A stretch of 64,000 nucleotides of DNA from an uncultured Planctomycetales bacterium (GCA_964618455.1 CAZUAQ010000010.1:1-64000); one strand, 5' to 3'. Numbered from the stretch's first letter, positions 14,314-62,370 are shown. The notes: a model not told the origin generated them from the letters alone. A program made the numbers and translations.

Positions 14314-15042
14314 TCAGCCGTCATCTTTGCCGAAATCCGCCAGAAAGCCGTCCGGCGGTGGTTCTTTTTCTTCTCTCACCTTGCTCACGTCGACGTTCAT
14401 CGGCGGCGGTGTGACGCCCTTCCGGCGTGCGGGATCCTGCGCCTGCTGCTGCCCTGATGGATTCGTCGTCCGTCCATCTTCCTTCTGCGACACCACCCGC
14501 CGCAACGCCTCCGCCCGCGCTGCCGCCTGATCGGCATCCACGCGTTGCATCTCTCCATAGGATTCGGAGCCGATCGACCGCGCCATCATGACGGGATCAT
14601 TGCCGATCTTCAGAACACTCCGATGCGCGATGAGGTTATTCCTGGCCATGTAGATGAAGTAAGCGCCAATCGCAATGAACAGGATATCGTTCATGAAACC
14701 GTATCCCAGCATGACGAGGAGTCCACTGCTGGTTATCCAGGCGGCTCCGATGATCGCCGTGATGATGGCATCGATGACCAGCGCATACGGCACAGCCAGA
14801 AAGCAGAGTGCCGCGGCGATCAACAATGCAAAGCCGCCATATTGAATCGACCAGTTGTAGGTCACTGCAGCAAACGACAATAAAGCCGCCTCCTGCTTGG
14901 GTTCGTACAGCGCAATGACGCGCGAGACCAGAACCAGGAGAACTCCACCGATCAGCGCCGACATCGCCGCGTTGGACATCACCTGCTTCGCATACGGCGT
15001 CTTCCAGACCGAACCCGATTGTTCCTGCGGTGCTTCCTGCAT
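14314..15042 (-). CDS. Integral membrane protein, function unknown (in the sulfur-carrier operon)
   Basis: About 4 predicted TM helices; start chosen at MQEAPQEQ (ATG reverse complement at 15040-15042); C-terminal polar tail. Confidence 0.45.
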   Translation of the reverse strand: MQEAPQEQSGSVWKTPYAKQVMSNAAMSALIGGVLLVLVSRVIALYEPKQEAALLSFAAVTYNWSIQYGGFALLIAAALCFLAVPYALVIDAIITAIIGAAWITSSGLLVMLGYGFMNDILFIAIGAYFIYMARNNLIAHRSVLKIGNDPVMMARSIGSESYGEMQRVDADQAAARAEALRRVVSQKEDGRTTNPSGQQQAQDPARRKGVTPPPMNVDVSKVREEKEPPPDGFLADFGKDDG

Positions 15043-15112
15043 GCCGATCCCTCGATTCTTTGCGTGTCGGTGCCCCGTGGTGATCGCGCCGCGGGCGTCC
15101 GCGGCGACCAAC

Positions 15113-52620: not shown

Positions 52621-53997
52621 CTAAGCGCGGGGGTCCCCGGGGTGAAGCCCGGTCGCCTCTTCCAGCCGCGCGATGAGCCAGGCGGCATCCTCCTTGCTCG
52701 GGATCATGTTCGCCAGGTGAAACGTGTCGCCCGATTCATCCTCGGCATAGAGCCGGTACGTGGTGCGACCGCCACCACGCATGAACTGGTCATAGTCGAA
52801 CTTGGACAGTCCCTCCCGGTGTTTTGATCCGCTCAGCAGCGGCAGTCCACACACCGTCCACCTGCGTCGCACGGCATCGGGGGTGATCGTCACGCGCCAT
52901 CGGCCGCTGCACGACACCAGCAGCGCCAGGAACAGCAAGGCCAGAAGGCTGACGATCAATGCGAAAGGCCAGGCCATCAGCGTCTCCGTGAAGCTCCAGT
53001 ATGCCAGGAGGCCTGCCAATGTACCGAAGCCCCCCGCCGTGATCGTGAAGAAAATCTTCCCACCGCGGTCGAGCTTCGCGCGCACCACATATTCCGAGCC
53101 ACCGTGTGCATTGGCGCGAGGCATGATCAGATCGGGACGAGGCGGTTCGAATGCGTCCGCCGCCGCCTGAAGATCCGCCGTGAACGGAGCGCGTTTCGCC
53201 GGCTCGAACTCTCCGGTCCGCACTTCTTCGGCGGGCACGTCGAACACAGGCACGATGTATTTCAGATCCAGGTTCGCCCCCGGCAGCGACGCACGGGCCC
53301 GCATCCGCCACTGGATCTTGTACGTGCGATCGGATCGCCCTCGGTCCACCGGACCCGTCGGGTCGACGTCCAGCGGGATGCTGAACGCCACCGGCACCTC
53401 CACCTCATGCGTGTCGAAGGCCACACCTGAGACTTCGACCTCCTCACGATCCGCGTAGATGATCTTCGAGCCTTTGCGCTTACTGGTGTTCTGGGAGGAC
53501 CGCCTTTCGGTAGACTCCCAGAACTCCTTGCACTGCAGGTCGACCCGGACCTTCCGCAAGCCGGACAGCCGTCCCCGAATGACCAGCCTGACACGAAGAT
53601 CACCGCCGATCCGCCCCGGCAACGTCTCCAGGATCAGATCACTCTTGCCGAAGCGTCGGTAGCGTAGTGTGGATCGAATCGCGACGTACAAGAGAAAGAT
53701 CCCAATCCCCAGGATCACGCCGTACGTCAGCGACCCCACCGTCCGCACCCAACCCTCGGCATAGGGCGCACTTTCCCGAATCGCCAGGACAAAGGGGATC
53801 ACCAGCGCGATGTACAAGGCCAGGCCACCCCAGTACAGCAAACACTCGAACAGGCTCGCCGGCGCCAGGCGCTGCCGGCGCCAATCCATGCGCTTCAGCC
53901 ATGGCCGATCGGACCTGGGTTCCGACTCAGCCGAACGTGTTTTGCGAGCGGAGACCGCTTCCGCTGTTGACCGTTGATCGAGTGGCGTCATCGCCAT
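52621..53997 (-). CDS. Hypothetical membrane protein
   Basis: 458 aa; N-terminal polar region, two TM helices early and a further TM pair near residue 330; no recognisable catalytic motif. Confidence 0.45.
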   Translation of the reverse strand: MAMTPLDQRSTAEAVSARKTRSAESEPRSDRPWLKRMDWRRQRLAPASLFECLLYWGGLALYIALVIPFVLAIRESAPYAEGWVRTVGSLTYGVILGIGIFLLYVAIRSTLRYRRFGKSDLILETLPGRIGGDLRVRLVIRGRLSGLRKVRVDLQCKEFWESTERRSSQNTSKRKGSKIIYADREEVEVSGVAFDTHEVEVPVAFSIPLDVDPTGPVDRGRSDRTYKIQWRMRARASLPGANLDLKYIVPVFDVPAEEVRTGEFEPAKRAPFTADLQAAADAFEPPRPDLIMPRANAHGGSEYVVRAKLDRGGKIFFTITAGGFGTLAGLLAYWSFTETLMAWPFALIVSLLALLFLALLVSCSGRWRVTITPDAVRRRWTVCGLPLLSGSKHREGLSKFDYDQFMRGGGRTTYRLYAEDESGDTFHLANMIPSKEDAAWLIARLEEATGLHPGDPRA

Positions 53998-57328: not shown

Positions 57329-58129
57329 ATGACGAGCCAACAGGGTTGCCCGGAGAAGCTGTGGAAGCGTTATCACCGGAACCGCTCGACGAAGAATCGC
57401 AATCGGCTCGTGGAGTGCTACGTGTCGCTGGTTCGCGCCGAGGCGGTGCGGATCGCGCGGCGCCTGCCCGCCCAGATCAGCATGGATGAGATCGTCAGCG
57501 CCGGTTTCGATGGGCTGATGCGGGCGGTGGAAGCGTATGACCCGGAGAAGCCCGCCAAGTTCGAGACGTTCTGCCGGCAGCGGATCCAGGGCGCGGTCAT
57601 CGACTGGCTGCGCAGCCAGGACCATCAGTCCCGCACAATCCGCCTCTTCGAGAAGCAGCGTAACCGGGCATGGGAAGAGCTGGAGCGCGAGCTGCAACGT
57701 CCGCCGACGGATGAGGAACTCCGCACCCGGCTGGACATGAGCCCCAAACAGTACGCGAAGATGTCGCGCATCTCGCACGTCGGTCAGTCGGTGCCGTTCT
57801 CGTCGATGGACGCCAAGCTGGGCAGCCTGAACGCCTCTCCGCACGAAGAGCGGACTTGGGAGGCCGAAGACCCGGACGCCATCGACCCGTCGGAGCAGAT
57901 GGAGCAGAAGATGCTCGTGGACATCCTCAAGAGTGGCCTCTGCAGGCAGGAGCGGTTGCTGCTGGCCCTGTATTACGAAGAGAACCTGTCGATGGCGGAG
58001 GTGGGTCAGGCGCTGGAATTGTCGGAGTCCCGCGTCAGCCAGATCCACAAGCAGGTGCTGCAGCAACTCCGCGACCGGTATGACTCGCGCGTCGCTGTCC
58101 GGCAATACGGCGAGGCGGTACATATCTAA
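57329..58129 (+). CDS. fliA: Flagellar sigma factor sigma-28 (FliA/WhiG family)
   Basis: Start MTSQQG with RBS caggag; region 2 (LVECYVSLVRAEAVRIARR), region 3 and region 4 (LSMAEVGQALELSESRVSQIHKQVLQQLR); 266 aa. Confidence 0.8.
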   Translation: MTSQQGCPEKLWKRYHRNRSTKNRNRLVECYVSLVRAEAVRIARRLPAQISMDEIVSAGFDGLMRAVEAYDPEKPAKFETFCRQRIQGAVIDWLRSQDHQSRTIRLFEKQRNRAWEELERELQRPPTDEELRTRLDMSPKQYAKMSRISHVGQSVPFSSMDAKLGSLNASPHEERTWEAEDPDAIDPSEQMEQKMLVDILKSGLCRQERLLLALYYEENLSMAEVGQALELSESRVSQIHKQVLQQLRDRYDSRVAVRQYGEAVHI

Positions 58130-58441
58130 GCGCAGCATGCTTCGGGATCGGAAGCTCGCACAGAGGCGGCGGCGAATTGCAGTCAGAATCGCACAAGTGA
58201 GGAAGCAGGCCGAGAAAGAGAGGTCCGTTTCGTCATTGTCCGTGATAAAGGAGAGTCTTCATTCATCCGCATGAGGCATGGATCCTGTGTTCGCTTCTCC
58301 TTTTCACCCCTCCCTCACGGTCGGGGTACTGACTGATCGCGCGTTGGGCCGACTGAATCTCGAACTTGTGCGTCTCGTTAAGACGCCTTGATCACGCGAA
58401 TGAGCGGAGCCACGCGGTAAACACGGCGGTGGATCGCGAGA

Positions 58442-58960
58442 TCAAGAAGTCGTCGGTATGGCTTCCCCGCACTCCGAACACACGTCCGTGACGTTTCCCG
58501 TCAGATCGTAGCCGCACTTCCGGCAATGGCCGGGCGGGAAGGGTTTGCGTACGCGCCAGAAGAGGACGGCGGTCGGCACCGCCACGCCGACCAGGATGAA
58601 CCAGAAGGGCACACGCAGCCATCGATGAACGACCCGCCCGCTGCGGTTGGAGCCGAAATCATCCTCCATGGTGACGATTTTACCGTAACGGAACCCGCTC
58701 AAGCGAAACGCCGGCGAATTCAAGGGACCGTACTGAAACCCCGCGGGTACGCCGGTCTTGTCGTACTCATAGCGTTTGATGTCGCAGGCAATGCCTTCGG
58801 CTTCGAAGAGATGCAGGCCGTACTCAATCTGCAGATTCCGCCGGGGGCGGGAAGTAATATAGAATGAGACGTCGTAGAAACAGGCGACGGCCCACAGGAT
58901 CACCACCAGCAGGCACCCTGCCGCGCCGATCCAGCGCATGCACCTCGCCACGCGATTCAT
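58442..58960 (-). CDS. Membrane protein with C-terminal CxxC-x11-CxxC zinc ribbon (paralog 1 of 3)
   Basis: Start MNRVARCMRWIG (ATG overlaps the upstream stop as ATGA at 58957-58960); two TM helices flank a globular segment; ends HCRKCGYDLTGNVTDVCSECGEAI. Confidence 0.6.
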   Translation of the reverse strand: MNRVARCMRWIGAAGCLLVVILWAVACFYDVSFYITSRPRRNLQIEYGLHLFEAEGIACDIKRYEYDKTGVPAGFQYGPLNSPAFRLSGFRYGKIVTMEDDFGSNRSGRVVHRWLRVPFWFILVGVAVPTAVLFWRVRKPFPPGHCRKCGYDLTGNVTDVCSECGEAIPTTS

Positions 58961-59435
58961 ACCGTGCTCCCGCATTTCGGACAAATGCCGCTGGTGTTGC
59001 CGGTGAGGTTATAGCCGCACGAAATGCACAAGTTGCTGACTTTCGCTCCCAACGACGAAGCGGTCCACGTGCGGCCATCCACAGAAACATGGGGACTCCT
59101 GTCACGATAAGGGTAGTCATCCAGTGTGGTAGCGTGATTTGCCTGCAATGACCTCCTCTGTATAACCAGTACTGATACTCGATGAATTGATACTTCGGCA
59201 AAATCCAATTGAGATCACCCGATGCAGACGTGAATTCCCATCCATCCGCAAAGAGAAATGCACTACTGATACTGATATCCCAGGTGATTATCGTATTCCC
59301 GCCTTGGAACTGATACGCCCAGGTCCTTGCATGGAACCCTGCATCCCAGTGCATGGCGACGGCATATCCGGCAATCACCACGCCCACACTCAAAATCAGC
59401 CAAGAGATGAGGAGCAGTCTTACAAATCGGATCAT
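58957..59435 (-). pseudogene. Frameshifted paralog 2 of the TM + zinc-ribbon family
   Basis: Length 479 nt (not a multiple of 3). N-terminal frame: MIRFVRLLLISWLILSVGVV...TM2 (TTLIVTGVPMFLWMAA)...RRWERK. The -1 frame then continues ...VSNLCISCGYNLTGNTSGICPKCGSTV*. The frame change is near 59040-59050 (gcgaaagtcagc). Confidence 0.5.
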
Positions 59436-59692
59436 ATCCGCTCCCCGCATTCCGGGCAGCGCGGTTCGGTGATGCCGCGCAGGATATGGTTGCACTTGCG
59501 GCAGCGGGTTTCGCGAGCGGAACCCACTTTCATACCCATAAACCGAGTCAACAGCCTGTAGGTCGTCAGTGCAATCAATGCCAGCGGCACCCCATAGGCA
59601 ATCGCTCGGGAGAATTGGTATCGCCATTGCGGCTTGATGACCGGAACGCGACGCTTCCGGCGGGTGAAATTGCCGCGCGGTCGCGCCGTCAT
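59432..59692 (-). CDS. Short TM + zinc-ribbon protein (paralog 3)
   Basis: Start MTARPRG (ATGA overlap with the upstream PEP-CTERM stop at 59689-59692); basic N-terminus, one TM, ends CRKCNHILRGITEPRCPECGERI; stop overlaps the paralog-2 start (ATGA at 59432-59435). Confidence 0.6.
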   Translation of the reverse strand: MTARPRGNFTRRKRRVPVIKPQWRYQFSRAIAYGVPLALIALTTYRLLTRFMGMKVGSARETRCRKCNHILRGITEPRCPECGERI

Positions 59693-60315
59693 GCGAGTTT
59701 TCGCGAGCGCGTGAGTACGCTGATCATCCCGCACAGGACGAGTACCAGCGTGCCCGGCTCCGGCGGAGCAATGACGGTCGATTCCAGCGACCAGGTGAGA
59801 CTCTCACGTTCCCCCGTACCGCCGGAGGTTCCCGCATAGGCAGAGAGGCGGTACATGTGCGTCGGATCAACAGTGAGGGGTGGATAGTACGAAGCATAGT
59901 CCAACCCCTCGAACACCAGCACATTCGTGTCCAGATCGGTGATGGTGAAGCTGCCCCAGGCGTTGGCGTCATTCAGGTAGACATCCAGCGAAAGTTCGGT
60001 CCCATAGGGGCGGAACGTCAGTTCGGTGGTGGCCTCGGCGGTCATGTACGGACCGCAGCACGAGATGGGACTCGTATCGAGATAGACATCGATGCGATCG
60101 TTCGTACTCGTCGCGCTGACGGTGGCAACCTCTCCCGGGGCGTATTCTTCCTGAAGGAAAGCGTTCCCCACGCCGGCGTCGCTGCCGAAACCCTCCATGG
60201 TGACCTCGGCCCAATAGGATTGCGTCAGGATGTCGATGCCGATGAAATTGGCCGAGGCCGCCGGCGCCCACGCCGACATTCCCAGCAACACACCCCACAT
60301 GATTCGCGCATTCAT
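59689..60315 (-). CDS. PEP-CTERM sorting-domain protein
   Basis: Start MNARIMWGVLLGMSAWAPAASA (signal peptide; ATG reverse complement at 60313-60315); C-terminus ...PEPGTLVLVLCGMISVLTRSRKLA = PEP motif + TM + basic tail. Confidence 0.75.
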   Translation of the reverse strand: MNARIMWGVLLGMSAWAPAASANFIGIDILTQSYWAEVTMEGFGSDAGVGNAFLQEEYAPGEVATVSATSTNDRIDVYLDTSPISCCGPYMTAEATTELTFRPYGTELSLDVYLNDANAWGSFTITDLDTNVLVFEGLDYASYYPPLTVDPTHMYRLSAYAGTSGGTGERESLTWSLESTVIAPPEPGTLVLVLCGMISVLTRSRKLA

Positions 60316-60822
60316 TGGCGCTCTTCCTCCAGCCCGGCCAGTAGCGCCCCGGTAATCCCAGGTTTCCAGAGGGCGATGGCCCGAGAAACAGACCCAATCG
60401 ATCAATGCACAACCGATGGCTTGGTCGCCGCGCCATTCGAGCGGCTCAGAACTGCAAGACCTCGATCTCGAAGTGACATATCTATGATACTCCCATTGGA
60501 TCGATTTTGTCCAACGGCGCGGGGAGCGTGGACTCCCGTGTCACCTCGGAAATCTCCAGCCAGTGAATCAGGCGGCCTCTACGTGCCAGAGAAGGGGACG
60601 ACCGCCGCTCCCTTCCGATGAGGTCGGCCGATGGCGGTCGGTGATTGATTTTTCATCGGCGATCACCTAACTTTTCAATATTGTTCGAGCCGTCTCATGT
60701 AAAATGCCCTGATTCCTCGATGATCCGCCATCCCTCGGCAGTGGAAGTCTTCGCCGACTCACCGGGAGGATCGGAAAGCTGATCGTGCGGGGCAAACTGC
60801 AATTCCCACGGTACAAGCGCTC

Positions 60823-62370
60823 ATGATGAAGCGATATACAAGCAGACCATGGTATTATCTCCCTCTGAAGGCGACCGTCGCGCTGTTCTTTGCCGCGTCG
60901 GCGACCTTGGCCCAGCCCTCTAACCTTTTCCGGCCCACCGACAAGCCTCTGCCTGGGGCGGCGGCAAACGTGATGGATTCGCGCGCGGTCAACGTGGATC
61001 TCGATTTGCTCGCCTCGGTGCAGCCTGGTCATACCATGGCCTTGAACCTTTTTCGGGGTAAGCCGTTCATCGGCGACGTCGTTGAAGCCGAAGGGCCCGT
61101 GAACAGAGGTCGCCTGGTTCGCGGCACGATTCAGGGTCGGCCGGGTTCGTCGTTCACCTTCGTCCGTCGCAACAACGCCGTGGTCGGGATCGTTCGCTTC
61201 GCGGGGACGCCTCACATCTACGAGTTGCGTTCCATCGGCAATGGGACCTCGCGGCTCGCGCGAATCGATGCATCGAAATACGCGCCGGAGTTATGCTTCA
61301 CGAAGATGCCGGACGGCGACAACCTCGCGCCGGACGGCGATGCGAAAGCGGGCAAGGGTCAGGCACCTGTTCCGGCGCAATCGGCCGACGACACCGACAC
61401 CCCGAACAGCAATACGCAGAACACCGGGACGGAAGCGGATCCCGCCGCCGCGCCGGCGTGTGCGCCGCTACCGATCACGTTGGATGTCATGCTGGTTTAT
61501 ACACCGGCGGCACGCATGGCGATGGACGGCACGCACGACACGATCATCGCCCAATGCCAGCTTGCCTTGGCGGTCACCAACCAGGTCTACCAGAACAGCC
61601 AGATCATCCCGCGGGCGCGTCTTGTGCACTGCACCGAGATAAACCGCACCGAAGCCAACGACATGGAAAACGATCTCGGTTGGCTGGCCACCTCCCAGAC
61701 GATAAAGGATCTACGCGACACTTACGCGGCGGACTTTGTCAGTATGATCATTTCGTACGGCAGCGGCTATGGTTACTGCGGCGGCCCCGATTACCGGGCA
61801 TATTCCGTGGTGAAATGGGATCGCGCGGTCAATACCTGGTCGCTGGCTCACGAGATCGGCCACAATCAGGCGTGTGAACACAATCGGGAGGATGCCGGCT
61901 GCGGTGTGGCCGACGGGTACGGCTACGGCCATTATTTCAACGGCAACAGCGGTACCCAATGGGGCACGGTCATGTCCTACATCGGTACGCGCATCAGCAA
62001 CATTTCCAACCCGAACGTGCTGTTCGACGGCCAGCCCACCGGCGTACCCATCGGTCAATCGGGTGAGGCCTACAACGCGTATCGCATCAACGGGCTGGCT
62101 CCCTGGCATGAGAGCTACCGACTCACCCGCTACGATGTCTGGGCCGACTTCGATCGTCTCTGTTTTTTTTCGACGGTGTGCAACGGGGCGTACGATACGC
62201 CTTTCAACAACCTCGCCGATGCGGTCGACGGCGCCGTCAACGGCGAGAACACCACGGCCATCCCGACGGTATGGATCAAATCGAGCACCACAGACGAAAC
62301 AATGACGCTCGACAGGCCCATGGTGCTTCGCGTCTGCGACGGGCCGGCCACGATCGGCCTGACGCCGTAA
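60823..62370 (+). CDS. Secreted metzincin-type zinc metalloprotease (reprolysin/M12B-like)
   Basis: Signal peptide MMKRYTSRPWYYLPLKATVALFFAASATLA; HEIGHNQACEH (HExxHxxxxxH) zinc-binding motif; 515 aa. Confidence 0.7.
   Translation: MMKRYTSRPWYYLPLKATVALFFAASATLAQPSNLFRPTDKPLPGAAANVMDSRAVNVDLDLLASVQPGHTMALNLFRGKPFIGDVVEAEGPVNRGRLVRGTIQGRPGSSFTFVRRNNAVVGIVRFAGTPHIYELRSIGNGTSRLARIDASKYAPELCFTKMPDGDNLAPDGDAKAGKGQAPVPAQSADDTDTPNSNTQNTGTEADPAAAPACAPLPITLDVMLVYTPAARMAMDGTHDTIIAQCQLALAVTNQVYQNSQIIPRARLVHCTEINRTEANDMENDLGWLATSQTIKDLRDTYAADFVSMIISYGSGYGYCGGPDYRAYSVVKWDRAVNTWSLAHEIGHNQACEHNREDAGCGVADGYGYGHYFNGNSGTQWGTVMSYIGTRISNISNPNVLFDGQPTGVPIGQSGEAYNAYRINGLAPWHESYRLTRYDVWADFDRLCFFSTVCNGAYDTPFNNLADAVDGAVNGENTTAIPTVWIKSSTTDETMTLDRPMVLRVCDGPATIGLTP

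What the first reader, a model, noticed from the sequence alone, without database searches (positions are those of the whole stretch)
58442..60315. Translationally coupled operon: PEP-CTERM protein followed by three paralogous TM + zinc-ribbon proteins
Four minus-strand genes are linked by ATGA stop/start overlaps at 59689-59692, 59432-59435 and 58957-58960. The first product is a signal-peptide protein ending in a PEP-CTERM sorting signal. The next three share a C-terminal C[RI][KS]CG[YH]xL[TR]Gx...C[PS][EK]CG zinc ribbon just after a TM helix. One is long with a globular segment between two TMs, one is frameshifted and one is a minimal TM + ribbon. This architecture is not a described system, no exosortase lies nearby, and the operon sits next to fliA (sigma-28).
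Basis: seen in the sequence. Interest (0 to 1): 0.75.

Follow-up and report, generated by a model that had tools for sequence, protein, structure and literature searches.

The report
Tandem membrane zinc-ribbon gene array
This is a small, partly decayed tandem array from a very large but unnamed Planctomycetota family of two-pass membrane proteins carrying a conserved cytoplasmic zinc ribbon; the PEP-CTERM-like gene and fliA beside it appear to be bystanders, not parts of a system.

Summary
The sequence observation holds. Four minus-strand ORFs (A 59689-60315, B 59432-59692, C 58957-59435, D 58442-58960) are joined by ATGA overlaps. B, C and D share a TM helix followed by a CxxC...CxxCG ribbon.

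The proposed "PEP-CTERM + ribbon system" does not hold:
- A is an orphan with a sub-threshold PEP-CTERM tail.
- A is absent from 80 related loci.
- A abuts the point where B lost its 5' end.
- fliA is convergent, and no sigma-28 promoter is present.

B, C and D belong to a huge unnamed family: 50,883 clusters at E<=1e-3, almost all from Planctomycetota and mainly Phycisphaerae. The module is a basic N-terminus, TM1, a hypervariable periplasmic beta domain (11-13% identity), TM2, a basic linker and a conserved ribbon (65-72%).

Family-wide features:
- tandem arrays of 2-7 genes
- 4-nt overlaps, often with a Shine-Dalgarno inside the ribbon codons
- natural multi-module fusions
- no conserved neighbours

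In this locus only D is intact.

My best guess, at about 0.3-0.4, is a miniature two-pass receptor or adaptor whose constant ribbon docks a shared cytoplasmic partner. The function is untested.

The parts
59689..60315 (-). Gene A, 208 aa. It is an orphan secreted or membrane protein with a signal-peptide-like N-terminus and a PEP-CTERM-like tail (PEP + TM + RSRK). It is adjacent to the array but probably not part of the array's ancestral unit.
   Evidence: ORF and translation. PEP-CTERM HMMs are below cut-off. Only a self-hit among 5.8e9 proteins. No homologue at 80 related loci. Unrelated to the ribbon family. Good coding statistics.
59432..59692 (-). Gene B, 86 aa. It is a 5'-truncated member of the 'B-type' subfamily, whose ribbon reads ETRCRKCxYILRGITEPRCPECGERI. 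It keeps one TM and the ribbon but lacks the subfamily's first ~50 residues, which carry MHWFWRAAIAV and TM1.
   Evidence: The subfamily has at least 531 members. Alignment. Homology begins at about 59668, just after A's stop, and no remnant lies upstream. Family HMM hit over profile positions 93-143.
59041..59435 (-). Gene C, N-terminal part (TM1, ectodomain, TM2) in the frame of ATG 59435. The frame breaks in the short stretch around the A-run at 59041-59043. The region is AT-rich compared with its surroundings.
   Evidence: Three-frame translation. Family HMM positions 12-117 at E=3e-4. GC 0.50 and GC3 0.56. The same sequence appears in an independent assembly.
58957..59049 (-). Gene C, ribbon part (…VSNLCISCGYNLTGNTSGICPKCGSTV*). 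It lies in the -1 frame relative to the N-terminal part, so the gene is a frameshifted, pseudogene-like copy.
   Evidence: HMM positions 120-143 at E=2e-7. Split-frame modules are rare (2 against 123 intact) and occur at different positions.
58442..58960 (-). Gene D, 172 aa, the only intact canonical member. Layout: basic N-terminus; TM1 (aa 3-28, nt 58877-58954); five-stranded periplasmic beta domain (aa 30-118); P-x-W motif and TM2 (aa 119-138, nt 58547-58606); basic linker and PPGH; C4 ribbon (nt 58466-58525).
   Evidence: Family HMM E=4e-40 over profile positions 4-146. Homologues. AF2 pLDDT 81.8. Charge distribution supports N-in/C-in topology.
59441..59446 (-). GGGGAG, a Shine-Dalgarno-like element for gene C. 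It is formed by the C-G-E codons of B's ribbon.
   Evidence: Family-wide, 37 of 68 overlapping starts have such an element within -18..-4, against a 10% background.
58967..58971 (-). GGGAG, a Shine-Dalgarno-like element for gene D. It lies inside the C-G-S codons of C's ribbon.
60316..60822 (-). Non-coding region between gene A and the divergent M12-type metallopeptidase gene. It is the only place a promoter for A-B-C-D can lie. No convincing promoter was found.
   Evidence: One sigma-70-like match at 60513-60484, which is at chance level. Best sigma-28 match 9/12, reached by 28% of shuffles. No Rfam family.

Best explanation
What it is (confidence about 0.9). B, C and D are a small tandem array of a very large, unnamed, Planctomycetota-specific family, mostly from Phycisphaerae.

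The family module runs: basic N-terminus (cytoplasm), TM1, a ~50-110-aa beta-sheet ectodomain (periplasm), a 'PLWxP…PT' TM2, an RRDRR-type linker, and a C4 zinc ribbon (cytoplasm). The canonical ribbon reads 'PPGHCxxCGY[DN]LTGNxSGxC[PS]ECG'.

Arrays are autonomous units:
- The first gene often has a -10 box abutting its start codon, which is the geometry of a leaderless transcript.
- Downstream genes start 4 nt inside the previous stop.
- The ribbon's own E-C-G-E codons often supply the Shine-Dalgarno sequence.

This particular array is decaying. B has lost its 5' end, including TM1 and presumably its native promoter. C carries a 1-nt frame break and has drifted to low GC. Only D is intact. 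Gene A (orphan, PEP-CTERM-like) was juxtaposed secondarily, and fliA is an unrelated convergent neighbour.

How it most likely works (inference, confidence about 0.3-0.4). Each module is a miniature two-pass receptor or adaptor with the topology of a chemoreceptor or an anti-sigma factor. A fast-evolving periplasmic domain provides diverse recognition. The near-invariant cytoplasmic ribbon is the common output: it docks one shared cytoplasmic partner, as the cytoplasmic zinc ribbons of ZitP and GltJ do.

Translational coupling and the natural multi-module fusions imply that neighbouring modules are made in fixed proportion and sit side by side in the membrane.

Shown versus inferred. Shown: family membership, architecture, predicted topology, array organisation, and the absence of conserved partner genes. 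Inferred: zinc binding, the docking function, and ligand recognition.
For: Family size and range:
- 54 word-indexed homologues.
- At least 434 genomic relatives, and 77 of the 80 loci kept are labelled Planctomycetota lineages.
- 50,883 clusters at 50% identity reach E<=1e-3, 12,818 reach E<=1e-10 and 612 reach E<=1e-30.
- The B-type subfamily has at least 531 members.

Architecture and topology:
- 121 of 167 ribbon ORFs have exactly two TM-like segments before the ribbon.
- AF2 models of D (pLDDT 81.8) and of a two-module fusion (pLDDT 78.9) both give TM, a 5-6-stranded beta sheet, TM, ribbon.
- K+R content is 41% in the N-terminus, 10% in the ectodomain and 33% in the post-TM2 linker. This supports N-in/C-in.

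Constant frame with a variable insert. Identity within arrays / between loci is 0.13 / 0.11 for the ectodomain, 0.72 / 0.65 for the ribbon and 0.43 / 0.38 for TM2. Only 19 of 80 modules have their closest relative in the same array.

Arrays:
- 47 of 80 loci have 2-7 co-oriented copies, and 47 of 101 consecutive pairs overlap by 4 nt.
- 68 of 174 ribbon genes overlap a downstream ORF by 4 nt. Of those, 37 have an SD-like element, usually GAG-TGC-GGG-GAG, against a 10% background.
- TA[GC]AAT lies at -12..-14 of the first start codon in 9 of 46 arrays, against 5 of 272 control ORFs (Fisher p=1.5e-5).

Fusions. Many proteins carry 2-4 modules head to tail.

No partner genes:
- No flanking family recurs in more than 6 of 81 loci.
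- No Pfam family occurs in more than 2 of the 96 nearest flanking genes.

Decay of this locus.

Precedent for cytoplasmic zinc ribbons of membrane proteins acting as docking modules. The GltJ ZnR binds MglB, and that paper reports that the ZitP ZnR binds PopZ directly (PMC11135422, read). PMC5182063 and PMC5182065 on ZitP were seen in abstract only.
Against: - There is no experimental evidence for expression, zinc binding, topology or any partner.
- No fusion to a known signalling domain was seen, and no conserved neighbour points to the partner.
- The ectodomain is so unconstrained (11-13% identity) that it might be a spacer rather than a ligand-binding domain.
- Sensors are not usually encoded as translationally coupled arrays or as tandem fusions.
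- dN/dS could be computed for only two close pairs. The ectodomain values were about 0.30 and 0.94, which is inconclusive.
- Fold searches gave no informative match, and afdb50 was unavailable.
- In this window two of the three copies are damaged, so the local 'operon' may be largely non-functional.
Confidence: 0.4

Rival explanations
1. Immunity or exclusion repertoire. The arrays are collections of membrane-anchored, periplasm-facing binding modules that neutralise periplasm-acting toxins (from bacteriocins or contact-dependent or type VI-like delivery) or block phage entry. The hypervariable ectodomain reflects an arms race.
For: - Ectodomain identity is at noise level while the fold is kept.
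- Arrays show birth-and-death evolution, with about 10% fragments or remnants.
- Copy number varies and there are no conserved neighbours, as with orphan immunity islands.
- One member lies next to terminase-like genes on an IMG/VR contig.
Against: - No toxin or effector gene recurs next to the arrays.
- No PADLOC or PHROG match.
- The family is absent from the phage and plasmid collections, and only 2 IMG/VR hits were found.
- A strictly conserved cytoplasmic zinc ribbon has no obvious role in immunity.
- Array members are old paralogues, not recent duplicates.
Confidence: 0.15
2. Structural hetero-oligomer. Neighbouring modules assemble side by side, through a TM-hairpin bundle and edge-to-edge beta sheets, into a membrane scaffold or 'picket'. 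The ribbons tether this scaffold to a cytoplasmic structure. The ectodomain is a spacer with no ligand.
For: - Natural 2-4-module fusions give Rosetta-stone evidence for physical association.
- Built-in translational coupling gives fixed stoichiometry.
- TM1 and TM2 are much more conserved than the ectodomain.
Against: - Single-copy loci are common: 29 of 80.
- Copy number and order are not conserved.
- Inter-module packing could not be evaluated. The fusion model has pTM of only 0.56 and no PAE was available.
Confidence: 0.15
3. The four genes form one functional operon in which the PEP-CTERM protein A is sorted, anchored or regulated with the help of the three zinc-ribbon membrane proteins. 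It would be a new exosortase-independent or accessory sorting system, possibly under FliA control.
For: - ATGA overlaps link all four ORFs.
- A has a PEP-CTERM-like tail.
- A co-oriented PEP-CTERM-tailed gene lies directly upstream of an array in 4 of about 62 cases, which gives p=0.004 if the background is 1%.
Against: - A is an orphan with a sub-threshold PEP-CTERM score.
- A is absent at 80 related arrays, and 58 of 62 arrays have no such neighbour.
- The enrichment disappears (p=0.12-0.38) at a 3-5% PEP-CTERM background.
- The arrays in L002 and L036 carry their own start-proximal -10 box.
- B is truncated exactly at the A/B junction.
- fliA is convergent and there is no sigma-28 promoter.
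- Two of the three ribbon genes here are damaged.
Confidence: 0.07
4. Novel C-terminal sorting or anchoring signal. The conserved block 'PLWxP, TM, RRDRR (+ ribbon)' is a tripartite sorting signal analogous to LPXTG, PEP-CTERM or GlyGly-CTERM. A dedicated enzyme encoded elsewhere recognises it, and the ectodomain is the cargo.
For: - The layout is the same: signature motif, TM, basic cluster, as in the PEP-CTERM definition (PMC1569441).
- The C-terminus is conserved while the 'cargo' is very diverse.
- There are many copies per genome and no linked partner gene, as in many-to-one sorting systems (PMC3237569).
Against: - Cargo size (50-113 aa) and predicted fold are uniform, and the N-terminal region is conserved too. 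The whole protein is therefore one homologous module, not a tag on diverse cargo.
- Internal modules in fusions keep the block in mid-protein.
- Known sorting signals carry no folded zinc domain after the basic cluster.
Confidence: 0.07
5. Gene C is expressed as a full-length protein by programmed -1 ribosomal frameshifting at the CGA-AAG (A-AAG) site, rather than being a pseudogene.
For: - The frame break is of the -1 type and coincides with an A-AAG sequence on which tRNA-Lys can slip (read directly from the sequence).
- The break is reproduced in an independent assembly.
Against: - There is no X-XXY-YYZ heptamer.
- Only 2 of about 125 modules are frame-split, and they break at different profile positions.
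- The N-part of C has degraded composition, with GC3 of 0.56.
- Neighbouring B is also damaged.
Confidence: 0.03

Closest known systems
ZitP (Caulobacter) and GltJ (Myxococcus): bitopic membrane proteins with a cytoplasmic zinc-ribbon (ZnR) domain
   Same: Both are membrane-anchored proteins with a small C4 zinc ribbon facing the cytoplasm and a periplasmic part. In them the ribbon is a protein-docking module. The GltJ ZnR binds MglB, and that paper reports that the ZitP ZnR binds PopZ (PMC11135422). PMC5182063 and PMC5182065 on ZitP were seen in abstract only.
   Different: - Their ribbon is N-terminal and precedes a single TM. Here it is C-terminal, after a two-TM hairpin.
- There is no detectable sequence relationship: a PDB-wide profile search found nothing relevant.
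- Those genes are single-copy parts of defined machines, not multi-copy, translationally coupled arrays with hypervariable ectodomains.
Generic zinc-ribbon / rubredoxin-like Pfam and NCBIfam models (Zn_Ribbon_1 PF13240, Zn_ribbon_3 PF13248, DZR PF12773, DUF7129, rubre_like_arch NF033497, Zn_ribbon_LapB PF18073)
   Same: They share the two CxxC knuckles with a CPxCG-type second knuckle. Between 19 and 27 of 33 family members give weak matches to the first five of these models; Zn_ribbon_LapB matches only 5.
   Different: - All matches are below the curated cut-offs (best E about 0.002-0.01).
- These models describe only the 20-25-aa knuckles. They do not cover the TM1-ectodomain-TM2 module or the family-specific PPGH…GY[DN]LTGN signature.
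PEP-CTERM / exosortase protein sorting (Haft et al. 2006, PMC1569441)
   Same: Protein A has a signal peptide and a C-terminal PEP motif, TM and basic cluster. The ribbon family's C-terminal block has a formally similar layout of motif, TM and basic cluster.
   Different: - A scores below both HMM cut-offs.
- No exosortase is visible in the 64-kb window.
- The ribbon proteins have no PEP motif, and they carry a folded zinc domain after the basic cluster.
- The association of arrays with PEP-CTERM genes is rare and statistically ambiguous.
Two-pass sensors with a variable periplasmic domain and a conserved cytoplasmic output (methyl-accepting chemotaxis proteins; membrane anti-sigma factors). 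This comparison rests on established knowledge of those families.
   Same: The topology is N-in, TM1, variable periplasmic domain, TM2, conserved cytoplasmic domain. Divergence among paralogues shows the same pattern.
   Different: - The output here is only a ~25-aa ribbon.
- There is no HAMP, signalling or anti-sigma domain, and no zf-HC2/ZAS match.
- The motif is HCxxC, not HxxxCxxC.
- No co-transcribed sigma factor recurs.

Membership tests
PEP-CTERM sorting-signal proteins (protein A) | N-terminal signal peptide | tested here: met
   Read from the sequence: MNARIMWGVLLGMSAWAPAASA|NF, with a basic n-region, a hydrophobic core and an A-x-A site. No dedicated predictor was available.
PEP-CTERM sorting-signal proteins (protein A) | C-terminal Pro-Glu-Pro motif, then a TM helix, then a basic cluster at the extreme C-terminus | tested here: met
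   The tail is PPEPGTLVLVLCGMISVLTRSRKLA*. A regex for this tripartite tail picks it up.
PEP-CTERM sorting-signal proteins (protein A) | Score at or above the curated cut-off of PF07589 / TIGR02595 | tested here: not met
   PF07589 scores 11.2 bits against 20.7. TIGR02595 scores 11.6 bits against 16.
PEP-CTERM sorting-signal proteins (protein A) | An exosortase (EpsH family) and multiple PEP-CTERM proteins in the same genome | not testable with these tools
   Only 64 kb of the genome is available. The window holds one PEP-like tail and no exosortase hit among the tested ORFs.
Unnamed canonical two-TM zinc-ribbon family (profile from alignment A2) | Full-length match to the family profile: basic N-terminus + TM1, ectodomain, P-x-W…PT TM2, basic linker, ribbon | tested here: met
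   D matches at E=4e-40 over profile positions 4-146. C matches in two frames (positions 12-117 and 120-143). B matches only positions 93-143.
Unnamed canonical two-TM zinc-ribbon family (profile from alignment A2) | Invariant ribbon residues C-x2-C-G-Y-x-L-T-G…C-x-E-C-G | tested here: met
   D has CRKCGYDLTGNVTDVCSECG. C has CISCGYNLTGNTSGICPKCG, with K in place of the nearly invariant E. B deviates (CRKCNHILRG), but this is within B-type variation.
Unnamed canonical two-TM zinc-ribbon family (profile from alignment A2) | Co-oriented tandem array with 4-nt stop/start overlaps | tested here: met
   The B/C and C/D junctions are ATGA. Family-wide, 47 of 101 consecutive pairs overlap this way.
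B-type subfamily (gene B) | C-terminal ETRCRKCxYILRGI(T/S)EPRCPECGERI | tested here: met
   B ends ARETRCRKCNHILRGITEPRCPECGERI. It is 47-55% identical to the 15 B-type proteins aligned with it (BLASTP identities to the same proteins run up to 67%).
B-type subfamily (gene B) | N-terminal MHWFWRAAIAV motif and first TM (typical length 100-125 aa) | tested here: not met
   B is 86 aa. Homology starts at subject residues ~44-60 (window ~59668), and no remnant lies upstream.
ZAS-type anti-sigma factors (zf-HC2) | N-terminal HxxxCxxC anti-sigma domain with a cognate sigma gene in the same operon | tested here: not met
   No zf-HC2 hit in any member. The motif is HCxxC and it is C-terminal. The only sigma gene nearby is convergent, and no sigma gene recurs near arrays.
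ZitP/GltJ-type ZnR membrane proteins | N-terminal ZnR followed by a single TM, with sequence or fold similarity to the solved ZnR structures | tested here: not met
Tat (twin-arginine) signal peptides | Match to TIGR01409 / PF10518, and an S/T-R-R-x-F-L-K motif | tested here: not met
   The family consensus R.RR..KW resembles the motif, but none of 33 members hit a Tat model at E<=1.
Known anti-phage defence systems / phage protein families | Match to a PADLOC or PHROG model | tested here: not met
   No PADLOC hit, and only chance-level PHROG hits. tblastn against phage and plasmid records found nothing.

The most novel reading that the evidence does not exclude
The family is a phylum-specific repertoire of miniature two-pass receptors, or of immunity/adaptor modules. 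Its near-invariant cytoplasmic zinc ribbon docks one shared partner. It is encoded by 'self-coupling' gene arrays: a leaderless head gene, 4-nt overlaps, and a Shine-Dalgarno embedded in the ribbon codons. That would be a previously undescribed kind of modular transmembrane recognition system in Planctomycetota, with tens of thousands of sequence clusters and no curated model.
Probability: 0.25. Interest if true: 0.75.

Novelty: new variant of a known kind. Interest (0 to 1): 0.45.

Why it matters
The specific claim, a PEP-CTERM-linked four-gene system next to fliA, would have been a new sorting system. The comparative data do not support it.

What remains is still useful. A family of at least 12,800 clusters at 50% identity (E<=1e-10), and about 50,900 at E<=1e-3, has no Pfam or NCBIfam model and no literature that I could find. 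It is confined almost entirely to Planctomycetota and has an unusually regular genetic organisation.

Defining it as a family would improve annotation of thousands of 'hypothetical proteins' in Phycisphaerae genomes. It would also give a concrete target for finding the ribbon's cytoplasmic partner.

The arrays are also a clean natural example of translational coupling built into a protein-coding repeat unit.

Tried and rejected
1. Curated libraries. Pfam, NCBIfam, PADLOC and PHROGs gave only sub-threshold generic zinc-ribbon hits for B, C, D and 33 homologues.

2. Fold and structure searches with the D model:
- Foldseek against PDB and BFVD found nothing at E<=1e-3.
- The afdb50 library was not available.
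- A profile search of PDB sequences gave only a spurious C2H2 'TGEKPYKCPECG' similarity.

3. Conserved partner genes. All-against-all clustering of flanking ORFs and Pfam on the 96 nearest flanking genes found none. Neighbourhoods of P0047, P0033, P0309, P0254 and P0277 show nothing consistent.

4. FliA control. No sigma-28 consensus lies upstream of A or of arrays elsewhere.

5. Tat signal hypothesis for the R.RR..KW motif. No Tat model hit.

6. Protein A as a diverged family member. hhalign probability 0.1%.

7. Programmed frameshift in C. It is not recurrent in the family.

8. Mobile-element origin. No plasmid or phage hits and only 2 IMG/VR hits.

9. Structured RNA in the flanks. Only a sub-threshold chance Rfam hit.

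10. dN/dS by region. Only two usable pairs, so inconclusive.

11. Literature. Searches for 'CGYDL' and for 'zinc ribbon' + Phycisphaerae found nothing relevant.

12. Source record. It could not be recovered through protein A, so the organism remains unidentified.

13. Reverse-transcriptase neighbours (2 of 96 flanks) as a possible DGR. My regex did not locate them, and I did not pursue this.


Full report
**1. The observation**

The minus strand of 58442-60315 carries four ORFs:
- A, 59689-60315, 208 aa
- B, 59432-59692, 86 aa
- C, 58957-59435, in two frames
- D, 58442-58960, 172 aa

Each junction is an ATGA in which the stop of one gene overlaps the start of the next.

A six-frame scan of the whole 64-kb window finds the motif C..C[GN][YH].[LIV]…C..CG exactly three times, all here.

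A begins with a signal-peptide-like segment and ends PPEPGTLVLVLCGMISVLTRSRKLA. It scores below the curated cut-offs of both PEP-CTERM models: 11.2 vs 20.7 bits and 11.6 vs 16 bits.

C is frame-split. TM1, ectodomain and TM2 lie in the frame of ATG 59435. The ribbon lies in the -1 frame, and the switch is around the A-run at 59041-59043. A Logan assembly of run SRR7048224 (L001) is identical over 58308-59621, so one assembler did not create the break.

Codon statistics look like real genes for A and D, are acceptable for B, and are degraded for the N-part of C, which has GC 0.50 and GC3 0.56.

**2. What B, C and D are**

No Pfam, NCBIfam, PADLOC or PHROG model covers them. They give only sub-threshold generic zinc-ribbon hits.

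D nevertheless has many homologues:
- 54 in the word-indexed search.
- At least 434 confirmed stretches in species-representative genomes. Of the 80 loci kept, 77 are labelled Phycisphaerae or other Planctomycetota.
- In the exhaustive profile search, 50,883 clusters at 50% identity reach E<=1e-3, 12,818 reach 1e-10 and 612 reach 1e-30.

All names given by sources are 'hypothetical protein' or obvious automatic misnomers.

The module is about 150 aa:
- a basic N-terminus (consensus R.RR..KW.G)
- TM1
- a 50-113-aa middle
- 'PLWxP…PT' TM2
- a basic linker (RRDRR.PPGH)
- the ribbon CxxCGY[DN]LTGNxSGxC[PS]ECG

Of 167 ribbon ORFs in 81 loci, 121 have exactly two TM-like segments before the ribbon.

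AlphaFold2 gives a confident model for D (pLDDT 81.8): helix 3-28, five strands, helix 119-138, ribbon. A natural two-module fusion (pLDDT 78.9) shows the same fold twice.

K+R content is 41% in the N-terminus, 10% in the middle and 33% after TM2. The predicted topology is therefore N-in/C-in, with a periplasmic beta domain and a cytoplasmic ribbon.

**3. Family-level organisation**

- Arrays. 47 of 80 loci carry 2-7 co-oriented copies spaced about 450-550 bp apart, and 47 of 101 consecutive pairs overlap by 4 nt.
- Built-in ribosome-binding site. 68 of 174 ribbon genes overlap a downstream ORF by ATGA, GTGA or TTGA. In 37 of these 68 an SD-like element lies 4-18 nt upstream, against a 10% background. 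It is usually the GAG-TGC-GGG-GAG that encodes E-C-G-E of the ribbon. The commonest tail after …CG is 3 aa. In the window, the GGGGAG before C and the GGGAG before D arise the same way.
- Leaderless-type head genes. Upstream of the first gene of arrays there is no sigma-28, sigma-54 or ECF consensus enrichment. A -10-like TA[GC]AAT starts exactly 12-14 nt before the start codon in 9 of 46 arrays. The control is 5 of 272 other ORFs (Fisher p=1.5e-5) and 0 of 47 on the opposite strand. This is the geometry of leaderless transcripts.
- Old, diverged copies. Identity within arrays / between loci is 0.37 / 0.28 for the N-terminus + TM1, 0.13 / 0.11 for the ectodomain, 0.43 / 0.38 for TM2 and 0.72 / 0.65 for the ribbon. 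Only 19 of 80 modules have their best match in their own array.
- Fusions and decay. Many proteins are head-to-tail fusions of 2-4 modules. About 10% of copies are fragments.
- No partners. All-against-all clustering of flanking ORFs finds no family in more than 6 of 81 loci. Pfam finds no family in more than 2 of the 96 nearest flanking genes. Annotated neighbourhoods of five further homologues are all different.
- Not mobile. The family is absent from the plasmid and phage collections and nearly absent from IMG/VR.

**4. The state of this particular array**

B belongs to a distinct, strongly conserved 'B-type' subfamily with at least 531 members, typically 100-125 aa. These proteins begin MHWFWRAAIAV (TM1) and end ETRCRKCxYILRGI(T/S)EPRCPECGERI. 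They occur inside arrays (L004, L005, L016, L029) or alone.

The window's B matches only from subject residues ~44-60 onward, starting at window ~59668. That is immediately downstream of A's stop at 59689. No remnant of the missing N-terminus lies upstream. B is therefore 5'-truncated, has lost TM1 and any native promoter, and now starts at an ATG that happens to overlap A's stop.

Frame-split modules are rare. There are 2 (L059 and the window's C) against 123 intact, and they break at different profile positions. C is thus an idiosyncratic lesion, probably a pseudogene, and its low GC fits relaxed constraint.

D is a full-length canonical member (E=4e-40).

**5. Gene A and fliA**

- A hits only itself among 5.8 billion proteins.
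- A is unrelated to the ribbon family (hhalign probability 0.1%).
- A has no counterpart near any related array.
- A co-oriented PEP-CTERM-tailed gene lies directly upstream of an array in 4 of about 62 cases: L002, L004, L036 and the window. This is significant only if PEP-CTERM genes make up 1.5% or less of genes (p=0.004-0.014). It is not significant at 3-5% (p=0.12-0.38).
- In L002 and L036 the array has its own start-proximal -10 box.
- The sigma factor at 57329-58129 is FliA/WhiG-like at 187.6 bits, just under the 189.6 cut-off. It is convergent with the cluster.
- The best sigma-28 match upstream of A is 9/12, reached by 28% of shuffles.
- No exosortase model hit any tested ORF of the window. 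The rest of the genome is not available.

**6. How it most likely works**

Shown:
- a constant frame of basic N-terminus, two TMs, basic linker and ribbon
- a sequence-unconstrained periplasmic beta domain
- stoichiometric co-expression devices
- natural fusions
- no linked partner genes

Inferred:
- The ribbon binds zinc in the cytoplasm.
- Because its non-cysteine residues (PPGH, GY[DN]LTGN) are nearly invariant across thousands of paralogues, it contacts one common partner.

This is how the cytoplasmic zinc ribbons of GltJ (MglB) and ZitP (PopZ) act (PMC11135422; PMC5182063 and PMC5182065 seen in abstract).

The topology and the divergence pattern are those of two-pass sensors such as chemoreceptors or anti-sigma factors. 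That comparison rests on established knowledge and is not a membership claim.

I therefore favour a miniature receptor/adaptor model, at about 0.3-0.4.

Rivals:
- an immunity or exclusion repertoire (0.15)
- a structural hetero-oligomer (0.15)
- a new C-terminal sorting signal (0.07)
- programmed frameshifting in C (0.03)

dN/dS could be computed on only two close pairs. The ectodomain values were about 0.30 and 0.94, so this does not discriminate between the models.

**7. Comparison with what is known, and novelty**

No defining feature of ZAS anti-sigma factors, ZitP/GltJ ZnR proteins, Tat signals or known defence systems was met (see the membership table).

The ribbon itself is a generic rubredoxin-like knuckle pair.

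The whole module, its B-type companion and its array grammar are not described in any library or paper I could search.

I rate this a new variant of a known kind: membrane proteins with a cytoplasmic zinc ribbon. It is undescribed as a family, but there is no functional evidence that would justify calling it categorically new.

**8. Verdict**

The cluster is an ordinary, partly decayed instance of an extraordinary-sized but uncharacterised family. The PEP-CTERM and fliA links are most likely incidental. Interest is 0.45.

Noticed in passing
L029 5630-5947; L005 926-1243; L004 6496-6798; L016 4568-5176; L086/L087/L090 5001-5348: There is a separate, highly conserved 'B-type' subfamily with at least 531 members. 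These proteins begin MHWFWRAAIAV and end ETRCRKCxYILRGITEPRCPECGERI. They occur inside canonical arrays or alone. This subfamily might be a constant subunit that partners the variable canonical members.
   Followed up: partly
L002 ~553; L010 ~2481; L022 ~5977; L025 ~5974; L036 ~3786; L044 ~521; L058 ~1021; L072 ~5973; L075 ~5609: A -10-like TA[GC]AAT (often GTAGAATG) starts exactly 12-14 nt upstream of the start codon of the first gene of arrays. This suggests leaderless transcripts. The count is 9 of 46 arrays against 5 of 272 control ORFs (p=1.5e-5).
   Followed up: partly
window 59441-59446 and 58967-58971; family-wide in L003, L004, L005, L008, L009, L012: The conserved E-C-G-E codons of the ribbon (GAG TGC GGG GAG) double as the Shine-Dalgarno sequence for the next gene, which starts 4 nt inside the stop. 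Translational coupling is therefore built into the repeat unit.
   Followed up: yes
window 59050-59430: An AT-rich patch coincides with the N-terminal part of the frameshifted gene C. GC is 0.50 against about 0.61 in the flanks, and GC3 is 0.56. The cause could be relaxed selection or foreign origin. This is unresolved.
   Followed up: partly
L082 126-611(+), 826-2448(-), 2417-2905(-): An IMG/VR contig carries a full-length family member next to ORFs that look like terminase large and small subunits. Those were identified by eye only and not scanned. It is the only phage-linked case seen.
   Followed up: partly
flanks of related arrays (alignment A3): Two of the 96 nearest flanking genes carry a reverse-transcriptase domain (RVT_1). 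I did not check whether these are group II introns, retrons or diversity-generating retroelements.
   Followed up: no
L087 5504-8072: IS66-family transposase genes (DDE_Tnp_IS66, TnpB_IS66) lie immediately downstream of a solitary B-type gene.
   Followed up: no
L004 4434-5639(+), 7945-8679(-); L029 1260-2387(-); L037 7102-8262(+): Paralogous FGE-sulfatase (SUMF1-like) proteins lie near several arrays, and some have PEP-CTERM tails. In L004 one of them is the gene directly upstream of the array.
   Followed up: partly
L008 4089-4577; P0010: Two variant architectures were seen. One array member has an extra N-terminal CxxC…CxxC ribbon. One 212-aa protein has four consecutive ribbon motifs.
   Followed up: no
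L083 1127-1183(-), 5007-5063(+): A looser ribbon variant, CxxCGYDLRAxxxxCPECG, occurs in other proteins. This suggests that the ~50,000 weak hits include a wider superfamily of CGYDL-type ribbons on other architectures.
   Followed up: no
window 60823-62370(+): The divergent neighbour is a secreted reprolysin/M12-like metallopeptidase (HEIGHNQACEH), weakly similar to the biofilm-associated metzincin Mep72. It shares the 507-bp intergenic region with gene A.
   Followed up: partly
window 52621-53997(-) and 14314-15111(-): A 458-aa ORF and a 265-aa ORF with about four TM segments have no Pfam or NCBIfam match.
   Followed up: no
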